Shown here piece by piece: positions 2,573 to 57,789 of a DNA stretch of 64,000 bases. How positions within the stretch are numbered: position 1 is the first letter of the stretch; each line of letters starts with the position of its first letter. Source of the DNA: a virus; IMG/VR virus record IMGVR_UViG_3300018080_000009, positions 32,001-96,000 of that record; one strand, given 5' to 3'. Under the pieces are notes generated by a model. That model did not search any database. It saw only the letters and a list, made by a program, of their open reading frames with translations, and had not been told where the DNA came from. The translations under genes were made by a program, and so were the position numbers.

Positions 2573-3814
2573 ATGCCAGGAGCAGGAATAGGAAGATGGG
2601 GTCCAGCAGGTGGTGTTAGTGGTCCGCCTACTGGATATTCATTGGCAGATTTTGACTTTCAGGTGAAAGCTTTAAGTATTGGTTCATCTATCAAGATTAC
2701 TTTCACTACTCCAGCTTTGTCTTATGCTCCTGAATGGGATAGACGACTTAGAATTCTGAGGAAGCAAGGTGAATGGCCAAGGTCTTGGGATGATGCAGAT
2801 GCAGTGGTATCGGTTGACGATGTTTTTCCAGGCCCGGCAGAAGCTGATCATGAATATACAGAGACTGATTTAGTTCCAGGTCAGATTTATTACTATGCTA
2901 TGTACGAGCTGAGAACAGATGGAGCTTGGATTTTAGATACTGTTGAGGGCAGGAGATCAGCATATCCCTATGATCGATGGGGTTTTGCTGAATATTTGTA
3001 CAATTCATTTCCCCGTGGTTGGAGAAGAGCAGATTCTCGTAACGACAATCATTTTCTGAAATTCATTAGTATTTTTGGAGCTCTATTAGACAATATGAAG
3101 ACAGATACTGAACATCTGCTATCTCTCTTCAGTATTGATGATATTCACATTGATTTGCTTCCGCTTTTGGACCAGAAGTTAGGTTGGCCTACGTGGTTTG
3201 CTGCACCAGGATTACAGCAGAGGCAAGATACATCCAGAGCAGTAGGTTTATACAAAATTTTGGGGCGTACTCTTGCTTATGAGAGAATTTTTGAATGGCC
3301 TACGTCTTGGGATTGTGAGGTAGTTCAAGGCTGGAAGTATGTTTTCTTTAGCAATGGCAAGTATGGGAGTACGACTCCTGATCTGTCTACAGTAGCGAAA
3401 CAAGATGAAATAAAGTCCAAGATGGGCCATATAGATGACTTGTTGAAATATACGAACCACAATACTTTTTGGCATTCTGTCAGTGGTTTAGGTTTTTTCT
3501 TGACCAAGATTCCTGGAGTCTCCGCTGAAATAACGATGGAAATGATTTATCGTTGTTGGGAACTTCTTAATTTTGGTATGGCCACGTATGTGAATCCTCA
3601 TTTGATGCTGGTCATGTATGATGAGGAGGTAATGGGACCTCCAGTTGATGATTGGGAGGGTTCAGTTTCCTATGCCGAAGGTCCGTTTGAGTTTACTGAA
3701 GAAGACTTGGGGTATACTACGGGAAGTGTTAGACTATTCCAGAGCAATGATGCTCTTAGTGTTTCGACAGATTTGGGTGATCGGACATTTCACAAAGATT
3801 TGGAGTATGTGTAA
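2573..3814 (+). CDS. Baseplate wedge / phage tail protein (P2 gpI-like domain)
   Basis: LYNSFPRGWRRAD...FLKFISIFG...LLPLLDQKLGW...AVGLYKILGRT resembles the Tail_P2_I-type wedge domain. Confidence 0.6.
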   Translation: MPGAGIGRWGPAGGVSGPPTGYSLADFDFQVKALSIGSSIKITFTTPALSYAPEWDRRLRILRKQGEWPRSWDDADAVVSVDDVFPGPAEADHEYTETDLVPGQIYYYAMYELRTDGAWILDTVEGRRSAYPYDRWGFAEYLYNSFPRGWRRADSRNDNHFLKFISIFGALLDNMKTDTEHLLSLFSIDDIHIDLLPLLDQKLGWPTWFAAPGLQQRQDTSRAVGLYKILGRTLAYERIFEWPTSWDCEVVQGWKYVFFSNGKYGSTTPDLSTVAKQDEIKSKMGHIDDLLKYTNHNTFWHSVSGLGFFLTKIPGVSAEITMEMIYRCWELLNFGMATYVNPHLMLVMYDEEVMGPPVDDWEGSVSYAEGPFEFTEEDLGYTTGSVRLFQSNDALSVSTDLGDRTFHKDLEYV

Positions 3815-4425
3815 TGGGAAAGATTTTGACAGAAAATGGTCCTCGAATCCTTGATTGCCATCAGGGCATAGTTCGTCAGGTATTCAATGAAAAATGCCTT
3901 CGTATAGTTGGGGAGTGGTTTGATAAAATTCGGTATCTAGATGGATCTGTGGAGTATGGAGAACATGGTGAGTTTGAGTGGGGAGACAATCAGATTCAGA
4001 ACACTTTTGCTACGTTGATAGCGTGTTGGGCTAGGGCAGAGTCCGGGTATGATCGTATTAATTATTTTGCAGTAGGTTCAGGTCTTGTATCTTGGGATAC
4101 GACCCCGCCTACTCAGCCATATACAGATACAACTTTGACTATGGAATATTTCCGTAAGGCTATAGCTCAGTCGAGCATCATTTTTATTGACCCGTCTACG
4201 AATATTCCAACTGGTGGAGTTCCAAGTTCTAAGATAGAGATCGATGTGACTTTGCTTACGACTGAAGCAAACGGTACGATGCGTGAGTTTGGGTTGTTTG
4301 GAGGAACAGCTACAGCAACTTTGGATTCGGGAGAAATGGTAGACTGGATTGTACATTCTAGAATTGATAAAGATTCTTCGATGGAAATCGACAGGAAAGT
4401 ACGAATCGAGTTTGAGACAAACTAG
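3814..4425 (+). CDS. Tail fibre attachment / baseplate protein
   Basis: INYFAVGSG...EYFRKAI...EANGTMREFGLFGG...RIDKDSSMEI motif of tail-fibre N-terminal/attachment domains. Confidence 0.6.
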   Translation: MGKILTENGPRILDCHQGIVRQVFNEKCLRIVGEWFDKIRYLDGSVEYGEHGEFEWGDNQIQNTFATLIACWARAESGYDRINYFAVGSGLVSWDTTPPTQPYTDTTLTMEYFRKAIAQSSIIFIDPSTNIPTGGVPSSKIEIDVTLLTTEANGTMREFGLFGGTATATLDSGEMVDWIVHSRIDKDSSMEIDRKVRIEFETN

Positions 4426-4435
4426 GAGATAAACA

Positions 4436-6718
4436 ATGGCAGGCAATACACCGAACGTAAGTTACACCAGTTTTGATTGGTCAAAGCTGAATGATTTGGT
4501 TGTGCTCCAGCAGGGAGTTCCGATTCCAGATAATGATTGGAATGAGGCGGATGCGATAGCTTTAGCCAATATGACCATGTTGATTGCCGATGTATTTGGT
4601 GATCTCCGAATACAGCCTCATTCTGGAGGCAAGTCTACGGGTTTGCCATACGGAATAGCTGAAGCTACTTCACCGTCATTGAATTTTGAAATTCAAGCTG
4701 GATGGGCTTTAGTCAAGGGTGTTTTGGTCCCTACAGTTATGGGAGACCCACCTACAGCGCATGATTATGAAGACGATACCAATTATATCTGTAGTGGTAC
4801 GATTACGACAGTTTCGTCTCCAAATATTACGGATACAGATAAGAATTGGACTACAGATTATAGTCTAGCAAACTGTCGTATGAAGATGACTTCGGGAGCT
4901 GAAAGTGGGAATACATTTACGATTGTTTCCAGAGTATCGGCAACAGAATTGCAACTTTCGAGTGTAGGTTCAATAGCTCCTACGGATACGTACATCATAA
5001 AGCCACCTGTTCTGACCACAGCAGGTTTGTTGGGAAGAACTGATGAAGTCTATCTAGCCGTATGGTGGGAAGACATCAATGAGAATGAAGATTCGTCCAT
5101 AGTAAATCCAGGTCTTGGTGTAGAAACTACTCACAGATCTAGACGTCGATGGTGTGTACGTGTTGCTGAAGGTGGGAGTACTCCGACATCGAGTACCAGG
5201 CATGGATTTGGTTTCCGTTATATGACATTGGCTACTCTTGTTAGAACGGGTCTGAATATCACTGAGGCCATGATTACGAATGAAGATAACATCCTTGGCC
5301 GAATAGACATGATTGGTCCAGATATTAAGACGTGGCTGGATGAGTATTATGCTGAGCCAGTAGCAATAGACCAAGCTGCTTTGACCCCAGCAGAAACTGG
5401 TACTCATACAGGTTTTAGTAGTTCAGATAATCTAGTTGATAGTACTAAGTCATGGACTACAGATGAATGGGTTGGTCGTACGATTGTAAATGTTACTGAT
5501 GGATTCACTGCTAGAATTACAGCAAATACGGCTACTGGTGCTACGACTGAGAATAAGAAGGGTGGTTCTGAACGTGATTGGGATAATGGAGATAGCTATC
5601 AGATCTTCGAGAATGAATTTCAGCTCACAGGAACTTTTTATGTAGGAAAAGGCCCGTCAGGTACTGCGGGAAGATATTTCTCAGCCAGAGATGCGAATGA
5701 TCCTGGTGAAGGTTTCTACGAAGGAGTTGTTCGTGGCAAAGGTAGTGGAGTTTATTTCGATGTGTATGATAGCACTAATACGACTCTTTTGAATCCTGCT
5801 GTAGATGCAGATGATAATGGATTCTATACAGATCCGTATCTCAGGGCTTATCGTGATGATCGTCCAGCTTCAAATTATGAAGCAGTTATCAATACTGGTA
5901 CAAAGATAGTCTGTTATCAGAGGAAAGCTCGAAATTTACTGTCTAATGAGCCAGCATATGCTTTCCCTCTAGCTGGATTGACTCAAGAGTGGATGGTGTG
6001 TTCCGGCATGGCCATGCGTCAGTTAGATGGAGATCCAGATACGATTTCAACTGGTGTTTTAGCTACAGTTCTTGAAGATTTGCTTGCGGTTGCGAATGAT
6101 CGTGTTCGCAAAGATTTGGCAGATACAATAACAGCTTCTCATACGTTTGATAGTGTTTCAGATAGTAAAGGCCAGCTTTGGGTATCAAAATGGGTAGGTA
6201 TGGAGGCGAGTACTCCATATGATGGATTTGGTACAGAATACTATCCAGATGCGACATCAAAATATGACTATTCAAATAATAATTTTGGATTCTTGTTAGA
6301 TGAAGTTGGGGATTTCGTTTTCTTCAGTGAATTTTTGCCCTCGGAGTATGAGTCTGGAGAACGTTTAGTTATTCATTCGTATTTCAGGCTGAAAAATGCA
6401 GAGACTGCTTCTAATAAGATTTATGCTCGATTGCATGCTGATATTTTTTCAGACCATGACACAGCTGCTTCTGTAAGTGATACTCGTTCTGTACCTCATA
6501 ACATCGGTAGTAATAATGCTGCGAATACCGTTCATGAAGTAATTTTCGTAGTGAATAATTCAAATCTACGTCCACTAGATGTATGTAAATTCAGGGTAAT
6601 GCTTTACGATGTGATCTCTGGAGATGCAGTCACAGAAGCGATATATCTTGGTTCCAGGGTTAGATATAGGGCCAACAAAATTGCTCAAGCGTTCACTTCC
6701 TGGCCATCAGAGGGTTAG
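4436..6718 (+). CDS. Tail fibre / receptor-binding protein
   Basis: 760 aa; N-terminal VVLQQGVPIPDNDWNE and VYLAVWWEDI...GVETTHRSRRRWCVRV (DUF6519-like); two internal D-x-x-K-x-WTTD repeats. Confidence 0.65.
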   Translation: MAGNTPNVSYTSFDWSKLNDLVVLQQGVPIPDNDWNEADAIALANMTMLIADVFGDLRIQPHSGGKSTGLPYGIAEATSPSLNFEIQAGWALVKGVLVPTVMGDPPTAHDYEDDTNYICSGTITTVSSPNITDTDKNWTTDYSLANCRMKMTSGAESGNTFTIVSRVSATELQLSSVGSIAPTDTYIIKPPVLTTAGLLGRTDEVYLAVWWEDINENEDSSIVNPGLGVETTHRSRRRWCVRVAEGGSTPTSSTRHGFGFRYMTLATLVRTGLNITEAMITNEDNILGRIDMIGPDIKTWLDEYYAEPVAIDQAALTPAETGTHTGFSSSDNLVDSTKSWTTDEWVGRTIVNVTDGFTARITANTATGATTENKKGGSERDWDNGDSYQIFENEFQLTGTFYVGKGPSGTAGRYFSARDANDPGEGFYEGVVRGKGSGVYFDVYDSTNTTLLNPAVDADDNGFYTDPYLRAYRDDRPASNYEAVINTGTKIVCYQRKARNLLSNEPAYAFPLAGLTQEWMVCSGMAMRQLDGDPDTISTGVLATVLEDLLAVANDRVRKDLADTITASHTFDSVSDSKGQLWVSKWVGMEASTPYDGFGTEYYPDATSKYDYSNNNFGFLLDEVGDFVFFSEFLPSEYESGERLVIHSYFRLKNAETASNKIYARLHADIFSDHDTAASVSDTRSVPHNIGSNNAANTVHEVIFVVNNSNLRPLDVCKFRVMLYDVISGDAVTEAIYLGSRVRYRANKIAQAFTSWPSEG

Positions 6719-8753: not shown

Positions 8754-9233
8754 ATGGTGACGAAAGCCCTAAGAGGTGCACCGGTACCACGTGACAAGGC
8801 TGAGAATATTGGCCAAGATTTCATGATCAATTGCCCAACGTCTTGGTCTTTTGCTGGTTCCATTCGAAGGAAGAAAGAAGAAGTAGGGAATATTGATATT
8901 GTGGCAATCCGTGGAGATTGGATACTTGAGTGGTTACTCATAAAGTTTGGCATGTCAGTAAAGGATACTCCAAAGACTTATGGAAAAGTAGAGGGTGTGT
9001 ACATAGATGTCTATTTGGCTGAAGATGAAGATTGGGGATCTCAGATCCTACGATGGACAGGACCAAGATCTTTCAATTCCAAATTACAGCTTAGAGCCAA
9101 GCATAGGGATCTTGTTTTAAATCAATATGGTCTGTTTAGCATCCGTGACAGGAAAATGATTGCCGGCCAGACTGAAGAAGGAATATTCCAAGCATTAGGG
9201 ATGTCTTGGATCCGACCAGAGGATAGGGAATAA
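8754..9233 (+). CDS. Minimal family X DNA polymerase-like protein (palm + thumb only)
   Basis: AGSIRR...GNIDIV, IDVY, WTGPRSFN, LNQYGLF, TEEGIFQALGMSWIRPEDRE are PolX motifs; first catalytic Asp is Asn. Confidence 0.8.
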   Translation: MVTKALRGAPVPRDKAENIGQDFMINCPTSWSFAGSIRRKKEEVGNIDIVAIRGDWILEWLLIKFGMSVKDTPKTYGKVEGVYIDVYLAEDEDWGSQILRWTGPRSFNSKLQLRAKHRDLVLNQYGLFSIRDRKMIAGQTEEGIFQALGMSWIRPEDRE

Positions 9234-31331: not shown

Positions 31332-31805
31332 ATGGATAAGACAGACAAAGAGATAGTTTGGCTTCCTATTGATTTAGCTAAGAAAGTTAAAGATGCTGAA
31401 TCAACGAAGGAATTAGATGCTTTGATTATCGGCTATCTTGATGAGTCCAGAGGAGAAGTTAAAGCAAATCTTGAGAGTTTGGATGCGGATTTGTTGCAGT
31501 ATCGTGCAATGATGACCAAGGCTAAAGTTGCTTTTAGAGAAGCCAAGGATGAGCAATGTACTGCATCCTATGAGCTTTGGGAGAATTTCGATAAGGAATT
31601 GCCTAAAGTAAAGGAGAAGATTATGAGGATTGTTCGTATCTTGAATCCTTTGTCCAAGCAACTTAAGGAAATTGACGATCTCATGAGGAAGATAAACACA
31701 TATCAGTTAGAGAAAGTAGCTGAATTGCTTTCCAGGATTGAGAATGCGAGTCCAGCTCTTTTGAAGGCCATAGGTCTTTTTGTCAGTGAAGAAAGGGGAG
31801 AGTAG
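31332..31805 (+). CDS. Coiled-coil hypothetical protein
   Basis: RBS AGGAGG. Confidence 0.5.
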   Translation: MDKTDKEIVWLPIDLAKKVKDAESTKELDALIIGYLDESRGEVKANLESLDADLLQYRAMMTKAKVAFREAKDEQCTASYELWENFDKELPKVKEKIMRIVRILNPLSKQLKEIDDLMRKINTYQLEKVAELLSRIENASPALLKAIGLFVSEERGE

Positions 31806-31806
31806 T

Positions 31807-33840
31807 ATGGAGTTCAAGGAATTTAATGCTTTATTGAAAAGACATTTTCATGAAATGTCGAGTGGAGAGCAGTATCTGTTTGTAACGGATGTGACTCCAG
31901 ACGATATGTGGGATGTTTATATGGAGAGCTTTCCCCCAGGAACGAATGAAGTTTTCAGGGAGAGGAGAGAATTTGATTGTGCCTGTTGCAAGCAATTCAT
32001 TCGAGCATTTGGCAATGTTGTTGCTATCAAGGGATTGAAAGCGGTGTCGATTTGGGATTTTGATGTCTTGGAGCCTAAGTACAAGGCTGTAACAGAATCA
32101 ATGTCTGAGTTCGTCAAGTCCAAACCGGTTCGAGATGTATTTCTTCCGATAGCCAGAGCCTATGGTACTGAAAAGAATCTTGAAACAAAGGACAGTAAAA
32201 ATATTCTGACATGGCATCATTTTCAGATTCAGATACCGGAATCGGTAAAGAGGTTTAAGGAGATCGATGTTGGTACTGTTCGTGGACGAATGAGAGATGT
32301 ACGGAATGTGCTCAAACGTTCTTTCAAAGAACTGTCCACAGATTCCATTGATACTGTTCTGGATTTGATAGCTCAGAAGTCCTTGTACAAGGGTGAAGAG
32401 TGGCAGAAGCCTTTGCAGAAGTTTCGTTTGATGCATGAGGAATTTCATCAGATGGAATTCGAGTCAGATCAGGAGAATTATTGCTGGGTAGCTTCAATAG
32501 AAGCTGGTGAAGCCATAAGTAAGATCAAGAATCATTCAATAGGTGTTTTGCTTACGGATCTTTCTGGAGATATGGATCTGAATGATGCTGTCAGGAGGTA
32601 TGAAAGTATTGTAGCTCCGACCAACTACAAACGACCAAAGGCTATCTTCACTAAGAAGATGGTTGAGAAGGCAAAAGCCACGGTAGAGAAGATGGGATTT
32701 GGAGATTCTTTAGGAAGGAGATTCGCTACCCTAGAAGATATTACAGTAAACAATATTCTTTTTGCTAATCGAGATGCGATGAAGCAGATGTCGGGGGATG
32801 TTTTCGAAGATCTAACAGATTCAGTTCCAGATAAACCAAAGAACTTCGAGAAGGTTGAGGAAGTAGCTATTGAGACGTTTATTAAAGATGTACTTCCAAC
32901 GGCCAAAGAAATAGAAGTACTGTTGGAGAACAGCCATAAGTCCAATATGATGTCGTTATTGGCACCAAAAGTTCCTGATAGTAAGACTATGTTCAAATGG
33001 AATAATGGTTTTTCATGGGCTTATGCTGGGAATATTACTGACAGCATGAAGGAAAGGGTGAAGTCTTTTGGTGGTAAAGTAGATGGAGTACTTAGGTTCT
33101 CTATTCAGTGGAATGACAATGATGATAATCCAGATGATCTGGATGCTCACTGTGTAGAGCCGAATAGGAACAGAATTTATTTCAGCAATAAGAGAAGTCC
33201 AGTTTCTGGTGGTGAGCTTGATGTGGACATCATTAGTCCCGATGGAGTAGCGGTGGAGAACATAACATGGCAAGAAACACGTCGTATGACCAAAGGAAAG
33301 TATGAGTTTATGGTTCATTGCTACACCAGTAGAGGAGCGAAATCAGGATTCACTGCCGAGATTGAATTTAATAATAGAATATTCTCTTTTGCTTATCCTA
33401 GGCCATTAAGACAAGGGGAGTACATCAATGTTGCAGATGTTTCTTTCGATGGCAAGGAATTCAAGATGGTTAAAGAGCATCTGACCTCGTCTGAAACTTC
33501 TGTCGAGATCTGGAATTTGTATTCGAATAAGTTTCATCCGGTATCGGCGTGTATGTATTCCCCCAATTATTGGGATGATCAAAAGGGTATCGGACATCGA
33601 CACTACTTCTTCTTGCTCAAAGGATGCAGAAACGATGAGAATCCAAATGGGTTTTTCAATGAGTTTTTGAATGAGGAGTTGATGCCCCATAAGAGAGTGT
33701 TTGAAGCTCTAGGTTCTAAGATGAGAGTAGAGGATTCTGAGAATCAGCTCTCTGGTCTTGGATTTAGTTCAACGAAACGTGCTTCCCTTGTTTGTAGAGT
33801 GAAGGGAAGTTTTGAAAGAGTCATCAGACTCACTTTTTAG
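31807..33840 (+). CDS. Large conserved-type phage protein (YfaP/DUF2135-like C-terminal domain)
   Basis: CACCKQF; LRFSIQW...DLDAH...LDVD...VENITW. Confidence 0.55.
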   Translation: MEFKEFNALLKRHFHEMSSGEQYLFVTDVTPDDMWDVYMESFPPGTNEVFRERREFDCACCKQFIRAFGNVVAIKGLKAVSIWDFDVLEPKYKAVTESMSEFVKSKPVRDVFLPIARAYGTEKNLETKDSKNILTWHHFQIQIPESVKRFKEIDVGTVRGRMRDVRNVLKRSFKELSTDSIDTVLDLIAQKSLYKGEEWQKPLQKFRLMHEEFHQMEFESDQENYCWVASIEAGEAISKIKNHSIGVLLTDLSGDMDLNDAVRRYESIVAPTNYKRPKAIFTKKMVEKAKATVEKMGFGDSLGRRFATLEDITVNNILFANRDAMKQMSGDVFEDLTDSVPDKPKNFEKVEEVAIETFIKDVLPTAKEIEVLLENSHKSNMMSLLAPKVPDSKTMFKWNNGFSWAYAGNITDSMKERVKSFGGKVDGVLRFSIQWNDNDDNPDDLDAHCVEPNRNRIYFSNKRSPVSGGELDVDIISPDGVAVENITWQETRRMTKGKYEFMVHCYTSRGAKSGFTAEIEFNNRIFSFAYPRPLRQGEYINVADVSFDGKEFKMVKEHLTSSETSVEIWNLYSNKFHPVSACMYSPNYWDDQKGIGHRHYFFLLKGCRNDENPNGFFNEFLNEELMPHKRVFEALGSKMRVEDSENQLSGLGFSSTKRASLVCRVKGSFERVIRLTF

Positions 33841-36094: not shown

Positions 36095-36174
36095 GGACCG
36101 ATAGCTCAGTCTGGCAGAGCACTCCCACCAGTTACACGCGGGAGAGGTCGTATGTTCAAATCGTACTCGGTCCA
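36095..36174 (+). tRNA. Atypical tRNA (Val TAC-like) with 13-nt anticodon loop
   Basis: Normal acceptor GGACCGA/TCGGTCC, D and T arms; CTCCC/GGGAG stem encloses ACCAGTTACACGC. Confidence 0.65.
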
Positions 36175-36187
36175 CTAGGGAGGAGTA

Positions 36188-36445
36188 ATGTTTACAGCAT
36201 ATCCTAAATGTAAAGATTGTGGGGGTCAGATGCATCCGATGGCTGGTCCTGGCAGTAATCCTATTTGTTATGATTGTGCTCGTAAGGAAAGAGAAAAGCT
36301 TGAGGAGGAAGTTAAGGAGATATTGAAGGCGCTTACGATAGAGAAGAGATTGTCTATTGTTGAGGCTACTTTGGTACGTAAGGCTGATGACTATTGGCTT
36401 TATGATTTTGTTCAGGGGTATCGTGCAGAAGATGATAACTCATAA
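36188..36445 (+). CDS. Small zinc-finger protein
   Basis: CKDC...CYDC; RBS GGAGGAG. Confidence 0.55.
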   Translation: MFTAYPKCKDCGGQMHPMAGPGSNPICYDCARKEREKLEEEVKEILKALTIEKRLSIVEATLVRKADDYWLYDFVQGYRAEDDNS

Positions 36446-55554: not shown

Positions 55555-56202
55555 ATGAAAGTAAGACTTACATTGGTAGAAGAAATGCTGGGAACCTCGT
55601 GTTCGAATCCCGAGGTGCATGAGGAATTCATTGCCAGCAAGAGTGCAGACAAGGTGAAAATCAAAGAGGAGCTTGAAGCTCTTCCAGCCGAAGTGTTGAT
55701 AGAGAAATCCTTGACGATTTTTCCACGAGATGAAAATGGAAATCCATTCCTCTATGATTATCAGATCAGGGGATTCTTGAAGAATTTCCTAGGAACGAAG
55801 GTTGAGTTTGGACCATTGGTGCTGAAGGTAGGTAAGAAGGATTATAAGTTTTCGAAATGGACCTACAAACGTCTTGTTGATAACTATGTCTTTGTCAAGC
55901 CGCGGAGGATCAAGTTGAACATGCCAGAAGGAAGTGAAGTTAGTTTCTGTACACGTCCACTAAGAGCTGAGACAATGAAGGGTGAGAGGGTGGCTTTAGC
56001 TACATCAGAAGCTGTCCCAGCAGGAACGACATTTGAATTCGAGATAAGGTGTCTTCAGCCAGAACTGTATGATTTGATGCCAGAAGCTCTAGACTACGGT
56101 GAATTCAATGGATTGCTTCAATGGAGGAATTCGGGAAAAGGTACCTTCACTTGGGAGGATCTAGATGAGCAAAAAGTCGAGGAAAGCAAGAAATCGGCGT
56201 AA
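55555..56202 (+). CDS. Stand-alone RAMP/Cas7-like (Csm3-type fold) protein
   Basis: MKVRLTL..EMLG, P.LY...IRGFLK, FV.P..I, RPLR, SEAVPAGTTFEFEI, terminal G-rich loop YG..NGLLQWRNSGKGTF. Confidence 0.7.
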   Translation: MKVRLTLVEEMLGTSCSNPEVHEEFIASKSADKVKIKEELEALPAEVLIEKSLTIFPRDENGNPFLYDYQIRGFLKNFLGTKVEFGPLVLKVGKKDYKFSKWTYKRLVDNYVFVKPRRIKLNMPEGSEVSFCTRPLRAETMKGERVALATSEAVPAGTTFEFEIRCLQPELYDLMPEALDYGEFNGLLQWRNSGKGTFTWEDLDEQKVEESKKSA

Positions 56203-56335
56203 AAGAAGACAAGAAAAGGATTTTCTCAAGAATGGTTCCAAACCCAGACACAAATCGAAAAGTGGACGTACTGGAAAGATTCAAAGTACTAAGAACAAGT
56301 CCCTGAATGATAGAGCACAACGAAAAAAGAAGTAA
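56165..56335 (+). CDS. 56-aa Arg/Lys-rich peptide overlapping the RAMP gene 3' end
   Basis: GGAGG upstream; MSKKSRKARNRRKRRQEKDFLKNGSKPRHKSKSGRTGKIQSTKNKSLNDRAQRKKK*. Confidence 0.45.
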   Translation: MSKKSRKARNRRKRRQEKDFLKNGSKPRHKSKSGRTGKIQSTKNKSLNDRAQRKKK

Positions 56336-56340
56336 AAGAG

Positions 56341-56880
56341 AAGTTATGTGCAGTTCTGTAAGGGAACGGTGCTGAATCATCAAGTATGATTCCGTAATGG
56401 TAATGAAAGGAAGAGCATATCAACGTCTTGTATCGGAAGGGTACTGTTCAGCTTAGTTATGAAGTGTATAGGTACTGATGAGTCTTGTGTGATTTTGTAG
56501 GGGAAGAGTACAGATGCGTATTTATGAGAGGGGTAACGTCCAGGTGTAGTTGAGCAGTTTGGAGTTATGGAGTGGCGCGGTAAAGTTGCGTTCTGGTATG
56601 GTCCTGTGAAGTCATGTAAAGGATACGTATTGAACTGTTATATAGGGTCCAGATATGGTCTGGTATGGTGACGAGAATATCCGTAGAGGATGTGAGGCGT
56701 TTGGTAAAGTTATGTCACGTCAAGGAACTGAAAAGTCATGTTTGATTTAGTAGTGGCGTGGTCGGGTCTGGTGCTGGCATGTACGATGGGGTCTAGTGGA
56801 GGCGCTGTGTTATTCGGTAGTGAAGTGTCCCGTTGGGCACAGGAAGAGTGCTGCGTTGAAGTGTGAGAAAGGGACTTGTG
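56341..56880 (+). repeat. Non-coding array with 5-nt periodicity, divided into 5n+1-nt units (candidate guide-RNA array)
   Basis: G (most often GT) every 5 nt; phase advances +1 at 15 GG dinucleotides; no ORF >=60 aa on either strand from 56384 to 57051. Confidence 0.8.
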
Positions 56881-56983
56881 GTTCAATACAGACGTTCCGT
56901 GGGAGGAACAAGGCTTCTGTCTTGTCTCAATTAAAGAAGTCTAGCAAACAAAAGGAGGTAGCAGGGGATAAATAGGTGTGTCC

Positions 56984-57033
56984 GGCATCTGTCTGTGGAG
57001 AGTCAGTAGGTTCGAATCCTACCAGATGCCCCA
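56984..57033 (+). ncRNA. tRNA-like minihelix (acceptor + T arm + CCA)
   Basis: GGCATCTG/CAGATGCC-CCA; GTAGG-TTCGAAT-CCTAC; only 14 nt in place of D and anticodon arms. Confidence 0.65.
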
Positions 57034-57051
57034 GTCAAAAAGGAGAAGACA

Positions 57052-57789
57052 ATGAAATACAGTCCAAGGGATAGGTGTACAGAAGAAGAATTGGCAATAA
57101 CCAGTATTGATAATGATACTGTCTTTACTGATGCAGTAGTATCGAAAGTGCTTCCTAATGATGTGAAATTTGTAGATGGCTTTCATTTGTTTGTTGAAGA
57201 TGCTGAAAAGTATGTTCAGCCAGATGATACGCTTCGATTATATGGCCAAGGTATTGGTCATGTTGTAAGAGGAGTGGCGGTAGTCAAAGAAAATGGGAAG
57301 ATAGAAGTATTGAGATATAAAACTCCTCTAGAGTCTGCCACAGAAGACTGTAAACGGTTTGAGGAAAACGATAGAAAGCGTGAAGAACAAGCTGAGAAGA
57401 TACGTAAACAAGTTGATGTTGATCAGCCTCCCAAGTTTAAGTGTAAGGATCTAGATGCTTGGAAGACCTGGGTGAAGAATAATCTTGAGCCCTATGGTCG
57501 TGCAGTAATTGTGTATGCTGAAAGATGGGCTGTACTGATGGAAAAGAAGATGGCTGAGGGTGCGACTCTAAAAGACATTGCCAAAGATACAAGTCACGAA
57601 GCAGACACAGATGGGATCACTGGATTCATGTATGGTGCAGCCATAGCTACACTTGTTGGAACGTGGGAACATGGAGAAGAGCTGAGAAAATGGCATAATC
57701 TAGATATGCAGATGGGAGACGAGGGTGAGAAAGCCAATGAAGAAGGTGGAGTATTGAATCCTGCTTGTTTGAGTATCAGCAGTTACTAA
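57052..57789 (+). CDS. Hypothetical phage protein
   Basis: RBS AAGGAG; GITGFMYGAA...WEHGEELRKWHN. Confidence 0.6.
   Translation: MKYSPRDRCTEEELAITSIDNDTVFTDAVVSKVLPNDVKFVDGFHLFVEDAEKYVQPDDTLRLYGQGIGHVVRGVAVVKENGKIEVLRYKTPLESATEDCKRFEENDRKREEQAEKIRKQVDVDQPPKFKCKDLDAWKTWVKNNLEPYGRAVIVYAERWAVLMEKKMAEGATLKDIAKDTSHEADTDGITGFMYGAAIATLVGTWEHGEELRKWHNLDMQMGDEGEKANEEGGVLNPACLSISSY

What the first reader, a model, noticed from the sequence alone, without database searches (positions are those of the whole stretch)
56984..57033. Natural tRNA minihelix with a His-type acceptor stem just after the array
Seen: a perfect 8-bp stem GGCATCTG/CAGATGCC directly followed by CCA, and a canonical T arm (GTAGG TTCGAAT CCTAC). 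Only 14 nt replace the D and anticodon arms. Established: an extra G-1:C73 pair is the tRNA-His identity element, and acceptor/T-arm minihelices can be recognised by RNase P and some synthetases. Inference: a processing signal that defines the 3' end of the array transcript, a decoy for tRNA-targeting defence enzymes, or a deleted tRNA/att remnant.
Basis: partly seen in the sequence, partly recalled or inferred. Interest (0 to 1): 0.7.

Follow-up and report, generated by a model that had tools for sequence, protein, structure and literature searches.

The report
tRNA-derived minihelix after a VIPR guide array
A 50-base copy of the top half of a tRNA (acceptor stem, T arm, encoded CCA) really does sit between a phage's VIPR guide-RNA array and an anti-defence gene; it most likely marks where host tRNA-trimming enzymes cut the transcript, but it occurs in this phage only, so it may be just a leftover of a deleted tRNA gene.

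Summary
A perfect Watson-Crick element of this design turns up in only 0.0025 of shuffled genomes. The tRNA covariance model aligns it end to end with the D and anticodon arms deleted (23.3 bits, below the cut-off of 29). It is therefore tRNA-derived.

The "array" before it is a staggered guide array of a VIPR system (Cas7-like Vipr gene at 55555-56202, array at 56338-56880). VIPR systems were described in 2026 preprints. About 100 non-periodic bases separate the array from the minihelix. Eighteen bases after the CCA a Tad4-domain (anti-Thoeris) gene starts.

None of 84 other VIPR loci has a tRNA-like element beside its array, and the closest relative genome has none at all. No integrase is present, and no cellular tRNA has this acceptor stem, so an att core is unlikely.

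My best reading (about 0.4) is a t-element-like RNase P punctuation signal between the guide array and the downstream mRNA. A functionless, internally deleted tRNA gene is almost as likely. This scan has noted similar armless tRNA-like "punctuation" elements on other DNA. Interest is moderate to low.

The parts
56984..57033 (+). Whole tRNA-like minihelix (G-1 to CCA), 50 nt
   Evidence: Sequence; fold; tRNA model alignment at 23.3 bits; chance estimate
56984..56991 (+). 5' strand of the 8-bp acceptor-type stem (G-1 plus positions 1-7, GGCATCTG)
   Evidence: pairs perfectly with 57023-57030
56992..57005 (+). 14-nt linker replacing the D arm and anticodon arm. Its 3' part, GAGAGTCA, resembles the anticodon-stem 3' side plus variable loop of phage tRNAs that share this acceptor stem
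57006..57022 (+). T arm: GTAGG / TTCGAAT / CCTAC, carrying the GGTTCRANYCC consensus
   Evidence: The same T arm occurs in many ordinary phage tRNAs
57023..57030 (+). 3' strand of the acceptor stem (CAGATGC) plus C73, which pairs with G-1
57031..57033 (+). Genome-encoded CCA. The phage's three other tRNA genes do not encode CCA
56881..56983 (+). Non-periodic spacer or tail between the array and the minihelix. It holds a small hairpin (56893-56910) and a near-copy of the acceptor 5' strand (GGCTTCTGTCT, 56912-56922)
56338..56880 (+). Staggered VIPR guide (vrRNA) array: G[T/A]NNN pentamers with +1 slips at GG, period 5.15 nt
   Evidence: the same kind of array lies next to the Vipr homologue in most of 80 loci; preprint read
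55555..56202 (+). vipr gene: lone Cas7-like RAMP protein, 215 aa
   Evidence: AlphaFold model with pLDDT 78; Foldseek E 2.6e-6, probability 1.00, to Csm3 and type VII Cas7; 980 homologues, none with a Pfam domain
57040..57045 (+). Ribosome-binding site AAGGAG, 6 nt before the ATG and 6 nt after the CCA
57052..57789 (+). Downstream gene, 245 aa. Its C-terminal half is a Tad4 domain (inhibitor of the type I Thoeris ThsB protein)
   Evidence: PF25186 at 1.1e-32, 113 bits against a cut-off of 25; phrog_9822; Tad4 function from PMC13728456

Best explanation
The element is a tRNA-derived minihelix. Most simply, it is a phage tRNA gene that lost about 28-30 nt (the D arm and most of the anticodon arm) in one internal deletion. 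It kept a perfect acceptor stem, T arm, C73 and CCA. It lies in one co-oriented transcription unit: vipr, then the staggered vrRNA array, then a 100-nt spacer, then the minihelix, then 18 nt with a ribosome-binding site, then the Tad4-type gene. I propose that it works like a plant-mitochondrial t-element. Host RNase P would recognise the coaxial acceptor/T-arm stack and the CCA and would cut 5' of G-1, at 56983|56984. That cut would create the 3' end of the guide-array transcript and uncouple it from the downstream anti-defence mRNA. Because the CCA is encoded, RNase Z should not cut directly after C73. The minihelix would then either be trimmed off by other nucleases as a ~50-nt CCA-ended RNA, or stay on as a structured 5' end of the Tad4-type mRNA. 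Shown here: the structure, its tRNA ancestry, its position and the identity of its neighbours. Inferred: co-transcription, cleavage by RNase P, and any benefit to the phage.
For: The structure and its non-random nature are established. All 13 stem pairs are Watson-Crick and the T loop is the consensus TTCGAAT. The phage's genuine tRNAs contain G-U pairs and lack an encoded CCA. No intrinsic terminator and no sigma-70-like promoter is predicted on the + strand between 55758 and 57091. The CCA lies 18 nt before the ATG, with the ribosome-binding site in between. A second tRNA-like gene of this phage (36095-36174) likewise ends 13 nt before the ATG of an ORF with a strong ribosome-binding site. 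The array is a VIPR guide array, that is, an RNA that must be matured. The VIPR preprint reports hammerhead-ribozyme-interspersed arrays, so RNA-cleaving punctuation in such arrays has a precedent. Bacterial RNase P tolerates extensive truncation of the tRNA body and cleaves tRNA-like parts of mRNAs and ncRNAs (PMC4919922). t-elements with the same GGTTCRANYCC T arm define mRNA ends (PMC1920247).
Against: The element is not conserved. None of 84 other VIPR loci has a tRNA or minihelix beside its array. The closest relative genome (97 kb) has no tRNA-model hit at E <= 1. No other copy exists in IMG/VR. VIPR arrays therefore do not need it. In a 191-nt context the minimum-free-energy fold does not keep the minihelix, although that fold is itself not significant (z -0.8). 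A recent neutral deletion would look the same.
Confidence: 0.4

Rival explanations
1. It is a functionless relic: a phage tRNA gene that recently lost its central ~30 nt and has not yet decayed. It may be cut by RNase P incidentally, but nothing depends on it.
For: The tRNA model aligns both ends with the two central arms deleted. The linker's 3' part resembles the anticodon-stem 3' side plus variable loop of phage tRNA-Arg(UCU) genes with the same acceptor stem and a nearly identical T arm. It is a single occurrence with no homologue in any collection searched. Other VIPR loci lack it.
Against: All 13 pairs, the T-loop consensus, C73 and CCA are intact, whereas the phage's working tRNAs do not encode CCA at all. 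The position, exactly between a ncRNA array and the next ribosome-binding site, is what a punctuation signal would need. Neither point excludes a very recent deletion.
Confidence: 0.35
2. It is a released small RNA with a function of its own: a 50-nt G-1:C73, CCA-ended minihelix that HisRS can charge, or that serves as a decoy substrate for defence toxins acting on the tRNA acceptor end (CapRel-type pyrophosphokinases, MenT-type nucleotidyltransferases).
For: G-1 and C73 are the bacterial His identity set, and HisRS efficiently charges a 13-bp minihelix carrying G-1:C73 (PMC9976931). This element has 8+5 = 13 bp. Anti-phage toxins that modify the acceptor end are known (discussion of bioRxiv 10.64898/2026.07.10.737580). 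The next gene is an anti-defence gene.
Against: There is no conservation and no known RNA decoy of this kind. G at -1 has about a 27% chance from composition alone. None of the phage tRNAs that share this acceptor stem has C73 or is tRNA-His. No tRNA-related enzyme gene was identified next to it. Most known defence tRNases cut the anticodon or variable loop, which this element lacks.
Confidence: 0.1
3. It is a structural cap rather than a cleavage site: a stable 5'-terminal structure protecting the Tad4-type mRNA, or a 3' boundary that stops Vipr polymerisation on the last guide.
For: The encoded CCA should block RNase Z (established knowledge of RNase Z anti-determinants), so the helix could stay attached to the downstream mRNA, 6 nt from its ribosome-binding site. 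Type II vrRNAs carry a structured 3' tail that caps the repeat tract.
Against: vrRNA tails are conserved within a clade and follow each guide. This element is single, lies 100 nt from the last periodic unit and is absent from 84 VIPR loci.
Confidence: 0.1
4. It is an attP core or integration scar copying the 3' end of a host tRNA gene.
For: Phages often integrate into tRNA 3' ends, and the T arm sequence is common among tRNAs.
Against: The complete 104-kb genome has direct terminal repeats and no tyrosine or serine recombinase. Both strands of the acceptor stem are present, which an att core does not need. The 21-mer from the T loop to the acceptor end has no exact match in 185,579 species genomes. 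All 35 genomic matches to the 8-bp stem plus T-loop pattern are non-tRNA chance hits.
Confidence: 0.03

Closest known systems
t-elements of plant mitochondria (Forner et al. 2007, PMC1920247)
   Same: They are non-decoding tRNA-like structures with a conserved GGTTCRANYCC T arm and an acceptor-like stem. They are embedded in longer transcripts, and their 5' and 3' edges are cut by RNase P and RNase Z to make the ends of neighbouring RNAs.
   Different: Those elements have mapped transcript ends; here nothing is mapped. They sit in organelles, not phages. They usually keep a distorted cloverleaf and lack an encoded CCA. This one is a bare acceptor/T-arm minihelix with CCA.
VIPR vrRNA array architectures (bioRxiv 10.64898/2026.04.26.720920): staggered arrays, hammerhead-interspersed arrays, structured 3' tails
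   Same: It lies in a VIPR locus, downstream of a staggered array. Like a hammerhead unit, it could provide a defined cleavage that matures the guide transcript.
   Different: The word tRNA does not occur in any of the three VIPR preprints. The element is single, terminal, 100 nt from the last unit, dependent on a host enzyme, and not conserved in other VIPR loci.
Engineered polycistronic tRNA-gRNA arrays, MALAT1-mascRNA, and gammaherpesvirus tRNA-miRNA units (from my own knowledge; MALAT1 also named in PMC4919922)
   Same: In each, a tRNA or tRNA-like module placed next to a non-coding or guide RNA lets RNase P or RNase Z define that RNA's end.
   Different: Those systems are eukaryotic or synthetic and use full cloverleaf-like modules. 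No natural bacterial or phage guide-RNA example is known to me.
Synthetic minihelix-His and microhelix-His substrates of HisRS (PMC9976931, section 'Histidine identity')
   Same: It has a 13-bp acceptor/T stack with a G-1:C73 pair and a CCA end.
   Different: Those are laboratory constructs without a 14-nt internal linker. Charging of this natural element is untested.
Precursor of C4 antisense RNA of phages P1 and P7, an RNase P substrate (Hartmann et al. 1995, listed in PMC4919922)
   Same: It is a phage non-coding RNA whose end is made by host RNase P acting on a tRNA-acceptor-like structure.
   Different: C4 itself is the functional RNA and has no T arm. Here the tRNA-like part would be the by-product.

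Membership tests
Canonical tRNA gene (Rfam RF00005) | Cloverleaf with D arm and anticodon arm; score at or above the 29-bit gathering cut-off | tested here: not met
   It scores 23.3 bits with both arms deleted. ARAGORN does not call it. It has no anticodon.
Canonical tRNA gene (Rfam RF00005) | 7-bp acceptor stem, 5-bp T stem, T loop TTCRANN, discriminator base | tested here: met
Bacterial tRNA-His type acceptor end | Encoded G-1 paired with C73, followed by CCA | tested here: met
   G56984:C57030 and CCA at 57031-57033; identity rule from PMC9976931
Bacterial tRNA-His type acceptor end | GUG anticodon, or descent from a tRNA-His gene | tested here: not met
   There is no anticodon arm. Among at least 118 viral tRNA-pattern matches with the same 7-bp stem, none is tRNA-His or has C73. 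No cellular tRNA has the 8-bp stem.
t-element-like processing signal | tRNA-like fold with a conserved T arm, embedded between other transcribed features on the same strand | tested here: met
t-element-like processing signal | Element edges coincide with mapped RNA ends; cleavage by RNase P or RNase Z | not testable with these tools
attP core or tRNA 3'-end copy | Identity to the 3' end of a host tRNA gene, plus an integrase in the phage | tested here: not met
VIPR vrRNA 3' tail or array component | Conserved across related VIPR loci and attached to the repeat tract | tested here: not met
   It is absent from 84 VIPR loci and from the nearest relative genome. It is separated from the periodic tract by 103 non-periodic nt.
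VIPR system (context, not the element itself) | Lone RAMP (Vipr) gene next to a 5-nt-periodic non-coding array, mostly in phages | tested here: met
   Cas7-like fold. Period 5.15 with power 8.1, against 1.4 at the 95th percentile of shuffles. An array lies adjacent in most of 80 homologous loci. There is no sequence-level hit to the type II Vipr of phage SUSP1, so this is another VIPR type.
Other curated RNA families (tmRNA, Y RNA-like, hammerhead) | Match to an Rfam model | tested here: not met
   In 56150-57150 at E <= 10 there are only the tRNA match and, on the minus strand, Plastid-ycf2 (30 bits against a cut-off of 65.7). The latter also hits the reverse complement of the phage's ordinary tRNAs.

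The most novel reading that the evidence does not exclude
The minihelix is a working RNase P entry site that matures the 3' end of a VIPR guide array and frees the downstream anti-defence mRNA. That would make it a natural counterpart of the engineered tRNA-guide RNA arrays used for CRISPR multiplexing. The released G-1:C73, CCA-ended 50-mer might also be histidylated or act on acceptor-end-targeting toxins.
Probability: 0.25. Interest if true: 0.6.

Novelty: new member of a known kind. Interest (0 to 1): 0.35.

Why it matters
VIPR systems were described only in 2026, and how their long staggered guide arrays are cut out of operon transcripts is not explained in the preprints I read. If this minihelix is a real RNase P signal, it would show that phages borrow the host tRNA-processing machinery to mature guide RNAs. 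It would also give a simple, portable part for expressing VIPR guides. If it is only a deleted tRNA gene, it is an ordinary genomic scar. With a single, unconserved instance, the second outcome stays nearly as likely as the first.

Tried and rejected
1. Relatives with an intact tRNA at this site. Flanking-gene searches in IMG/VR and JGI metagenomes gave only distant, non-syntenic relatives. None has a tRNA or minihelix here. The nearest genome, G001, has no tRNA-model hit.
2. Exact and gapped DNA patterns gave no other copy. The one short-form candidate (L370) is an internal match inside a normal tRNA-Val.
3. blastn against GenBank phages. The best hits, Ruegeria phage V13 and Acinetobacter phage At2, are unannotated ordinary tRNA clusters that share the T arm.
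4. The parent tRNA type could not be assigned. The acceptor stem GCATCTG/CAGATGC is used by phage tRNA-Gly, Arg, Leu, Lys, Thr and others, and the phages carrying them are unrelated to this one.
5. The Plastid-ycf2 match on the minus strand is a generic reverse-complement-of-tRNA effect.
6. The att core reading was rejected.
7. Before reading the VIPR preprints I considered that the array might be a DNA-level element (a replication origin, with 5.15 x 2 = 10.3 bp) or a TRAP-like protein sponge. I dropped both after the fold search and the preprint.

Full report
**The observation.** The window is bases 32001-96000 of a complete 104,014-bp uncultured phage genome with direct terminal repeats. 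At 56984-57033 the + strand reads GGCATCTG / TCTGTGGAGAGTCA / GTAGG TTCGAAT CCTAC / CAGATGCC / CCA. Both stems are perfect Watson-Crick helices of 8 and 5 bp. The T loop is the bacterial consensus.
- Folded alone, the 50-mer adopts exactly this structure (-17.9 kcal/mol, z -2.6).
- The Rfam tRNA model aligns it from model position 1 to 71 with the D and anticodon arms deleted. It scores 23.3 bits, under the 29-bit cut-off. ARAGORN ignores it.
- A purpose-written scanner finds one all-Watson-Crick element of this design in the real genome and 0.0025 per shuffled genome, never with CCA.
- The C-C-C-A tail alone has a composition probability of about 0.001 on this C-poor strand.

**What surrounds it.**
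- *Upstream gene.* The 215-aa protein at 55555-56202 belongs to a very large family with no Pfam domain (980 hits). An AlphaFold model (pLDDT 78) matches Csm3 and type VII Cas7 chains (Foldseek E 2.6e-6, probability 1.00).
- *The array.* The non-coding stretch 56338-56880 consists of about 110 G[T/A]NNN pentamers with +1 slips at GG. The period is 5.15 nt. Spectral power is 8.1, against 1.4 at the 95th percentile of shuffles.
- *Conservation of the module.* In most of 80 IMG/VR loci that encode a homologue of the protein, a G-periodic array with the same 5.1-5.2-nt period lies directly beside the gene on the same strand.
I read the preprint (bioRxiv 10.64898/2026.04.26.720920). A lone RAMP protein (Vipr) polymerises on guide RNAs built of five-base repeats. 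Arrays can be "staggered", with guides overlapping by one nucleotide, or interspersed with hammerhead ribozymes. The anatomy here fits a staggered array of a VIPR type other than the characterised type II. There is no tblastn hit to phage SUSP1.
- *Downstream gene.* The gene at 57052-57789 carries a Tad4 domain (PF25186, 113 bits). Tad4 binds and blocks the Thoeris ThsB protein (PMC13728456).

**Position of the minihelix.** It is not flush with the array. The 103 nt from 56881 to 56983 show no pentamer periodicity. The CCA is followed by 18 nt that contain AAGGAG and then the ATG. No intrinsic terminator and no sigma-70-type promoter is predicted on the + strand between the vipr gene and the Tad4-type gene. 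Co-transcription is therefore plausible but unproven.

**Origin.**
- The 7-bp stem GCATCTG/CAGATGC is common among phage tRNAs (Gly-UCC, Arg-UCU, Leu, Lys, Thr and others). There were at least 118 pattern matches in IMG/VR.
- Some tRNA-Arg(UCU) genes have a T arm one base different from this one. They also have a similar anticodon-stem 3' side plus variable loop (GA GAGTT GTAGG, against GA GAGTCA GTAGG here).
- A single internal deletion of about 28-30 nt from such a gene would produce the element.
- The phages carrying those tRNAs are unrelated to this one.
- None of those tRNAs has C73 or is tRNA-His.
- No cellular genome among 185,579 species has a tRNA with the 8-bp stem or the 21-mer from the T loop to the acceptor end.

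So "His-type" (G-1:C73 plus CCA, the bacterial His identity set, PMC9976931) correctly describes the end. It is not evidence of descent from a tRNA-His. The phage's other tRNA genes do not encode CCA. They are Thr, Asp and a third with a 13-nt anticodon loop at 36095-36174.

**Conservation.** This is the weak point.
- No other copy exists in IMG/VR.
- None of 84 VIPR loci has a tRNA or minihelix next to its array. This holds under a strict scan, and a permissive scan stays at noise level (60 hits against 41 in shuffles, none ending in CCA).
- The nearest relative genome (97 kb, about 60% protein identity) has no tRNA-model hit at E <= 1.
- Homologues of the Tad4-type protein (59-66% identity) have other upstream neighbours.

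Selection therefore cannot be separated from a recent deletion.

**Mechanism.** Bacterial RNase P needs little more than the coaxial acceptor/T-arm stack, the T loop and the 3' RCCA, and it tolerates extensive truncation of the tRNA body. It also cuts tRNA-like parts of mRNAs and ncRNAs, including a phage antisense RNA precursor (PMC4919922). Plant-mitochondrial t-elements with the same T-arm motif define mRNA ends in vivo (PMC1920247).

On this basis I propose that RNase P cuts 5' of G-1. That cut would give the guide-array transcript its 3' end and separate it from the Tad4-type mRNA. The encoded CCA should protect the 3' side from RNase Z (established knowledge). The helix would then be trimmed off by other nucleases or stay as a 5' structure on the mRNA.

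Two things make this reading natural. The VIPR preprint reports hammerhead-interspersed arrays. And a second tRNA-like gene of this phage also ends 13 nt before a start codon. Against it stand the lack of conservation, the absence of RNA data, and an (insignificant) alternative fold in the 191-nt context.

**Rivals.**
- *Functionless relic of a deleted tRNA gene.* This is almost as likely.
- *Chargeable or decoy small RNA.* It is conceivable, because HisRS charges 13-bp G-1:C73 minihelices and anti-phage toxins that modify the acceptor end exist. Nothing here tests it.
- *att core.* It is disfavoured. There is no integrase, both acceptor strands are present, and no host match was found.

**Verdict.** The element is a new member of a known kind (tRNA-derived punctuation or pseudo-tRNA elements). 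Similar armless tRNA-like elements before start codons have been noted by this scan on other DNA. The real novelty of the neighbourhood, the VIPR system, is already in print. Interest is 0.35.

Noticed in passing
window 55555-56880: Complete VIPR locus: a lone Cas7-like Vipr gene plus a ~540-nt staggered array of G[T/A]NNN pentamers (period 5.15 nt, +1 slips at GG every 26-46 nt). The second repeat position is T/A here but mostly C or A in homologous loci, following genome composition.
   Followed up: yes
window 36095-36174: A third tRNA gene with normal acceptor, D and T arms but a 13-nt anticodon loop. It scores 50.7 bits in sensitive Rfam mode but is missed by ARAGORN and by the default Rfam filters. 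It ends 13 nt before the ATG of an 85-aa CxxC-rich ORF (36188-36445) that has a strong ribosome-binding site.
   Followed up: partly
window 57052-57789: Tad4-domain protein with an unexplained ~130-aa N-terminal extension. Full-length homologues (59-66% identity) occur in metagenomes with different upstream neighbours.
   Followed up: partly
window 56912-56922 and 56984-56994: An 11-nt direct repeat (GGCTTCTGTCT / GGCATCTGTCT). A near-copy of the minihelix 5' acceptor strand lies 72 nt upstream and could pair with the 3' strand with one mismatch. It may be a trace of the rearrangement that made the element.
   Followed up: no
L313:7427-7501, L281:4966-5039, L328 (minus strand, 8988-9063 of its reverse complement): Phage tRNA-like sequences with the same acceptor stem that ARAGORN does not call. 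An anticodon-like hairpin follows the acceptor stem directly, and a D-loop-like AATTGGA sequence comes after it, as if the arms were reordered.
   Followed up: no
L142:401-5140 and L002:1496-6659: In typical ~40-80-kb gut phages the Vipr gene and its array sit inside the recombination module, between an SbcC-like ATPase and a RecT-like annealing protein.
   Followed up: partly
L112 (record G001), 3001-6600: In the closest relative genome the order is vipr, then a phrog_1735 homologue (686-aa family, 60% identical to window 31780-33840), then the array. In this window the two genes are 22 kb apart.
   Followed up: no
window 1-64000: All ORFs of 150 aa or more but one are on the + strand. GC skew is strongly positive throughout (0.15-0.39), so the + strand is markedly C-poor (15.5% C genome-wide).
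   Followed up: no
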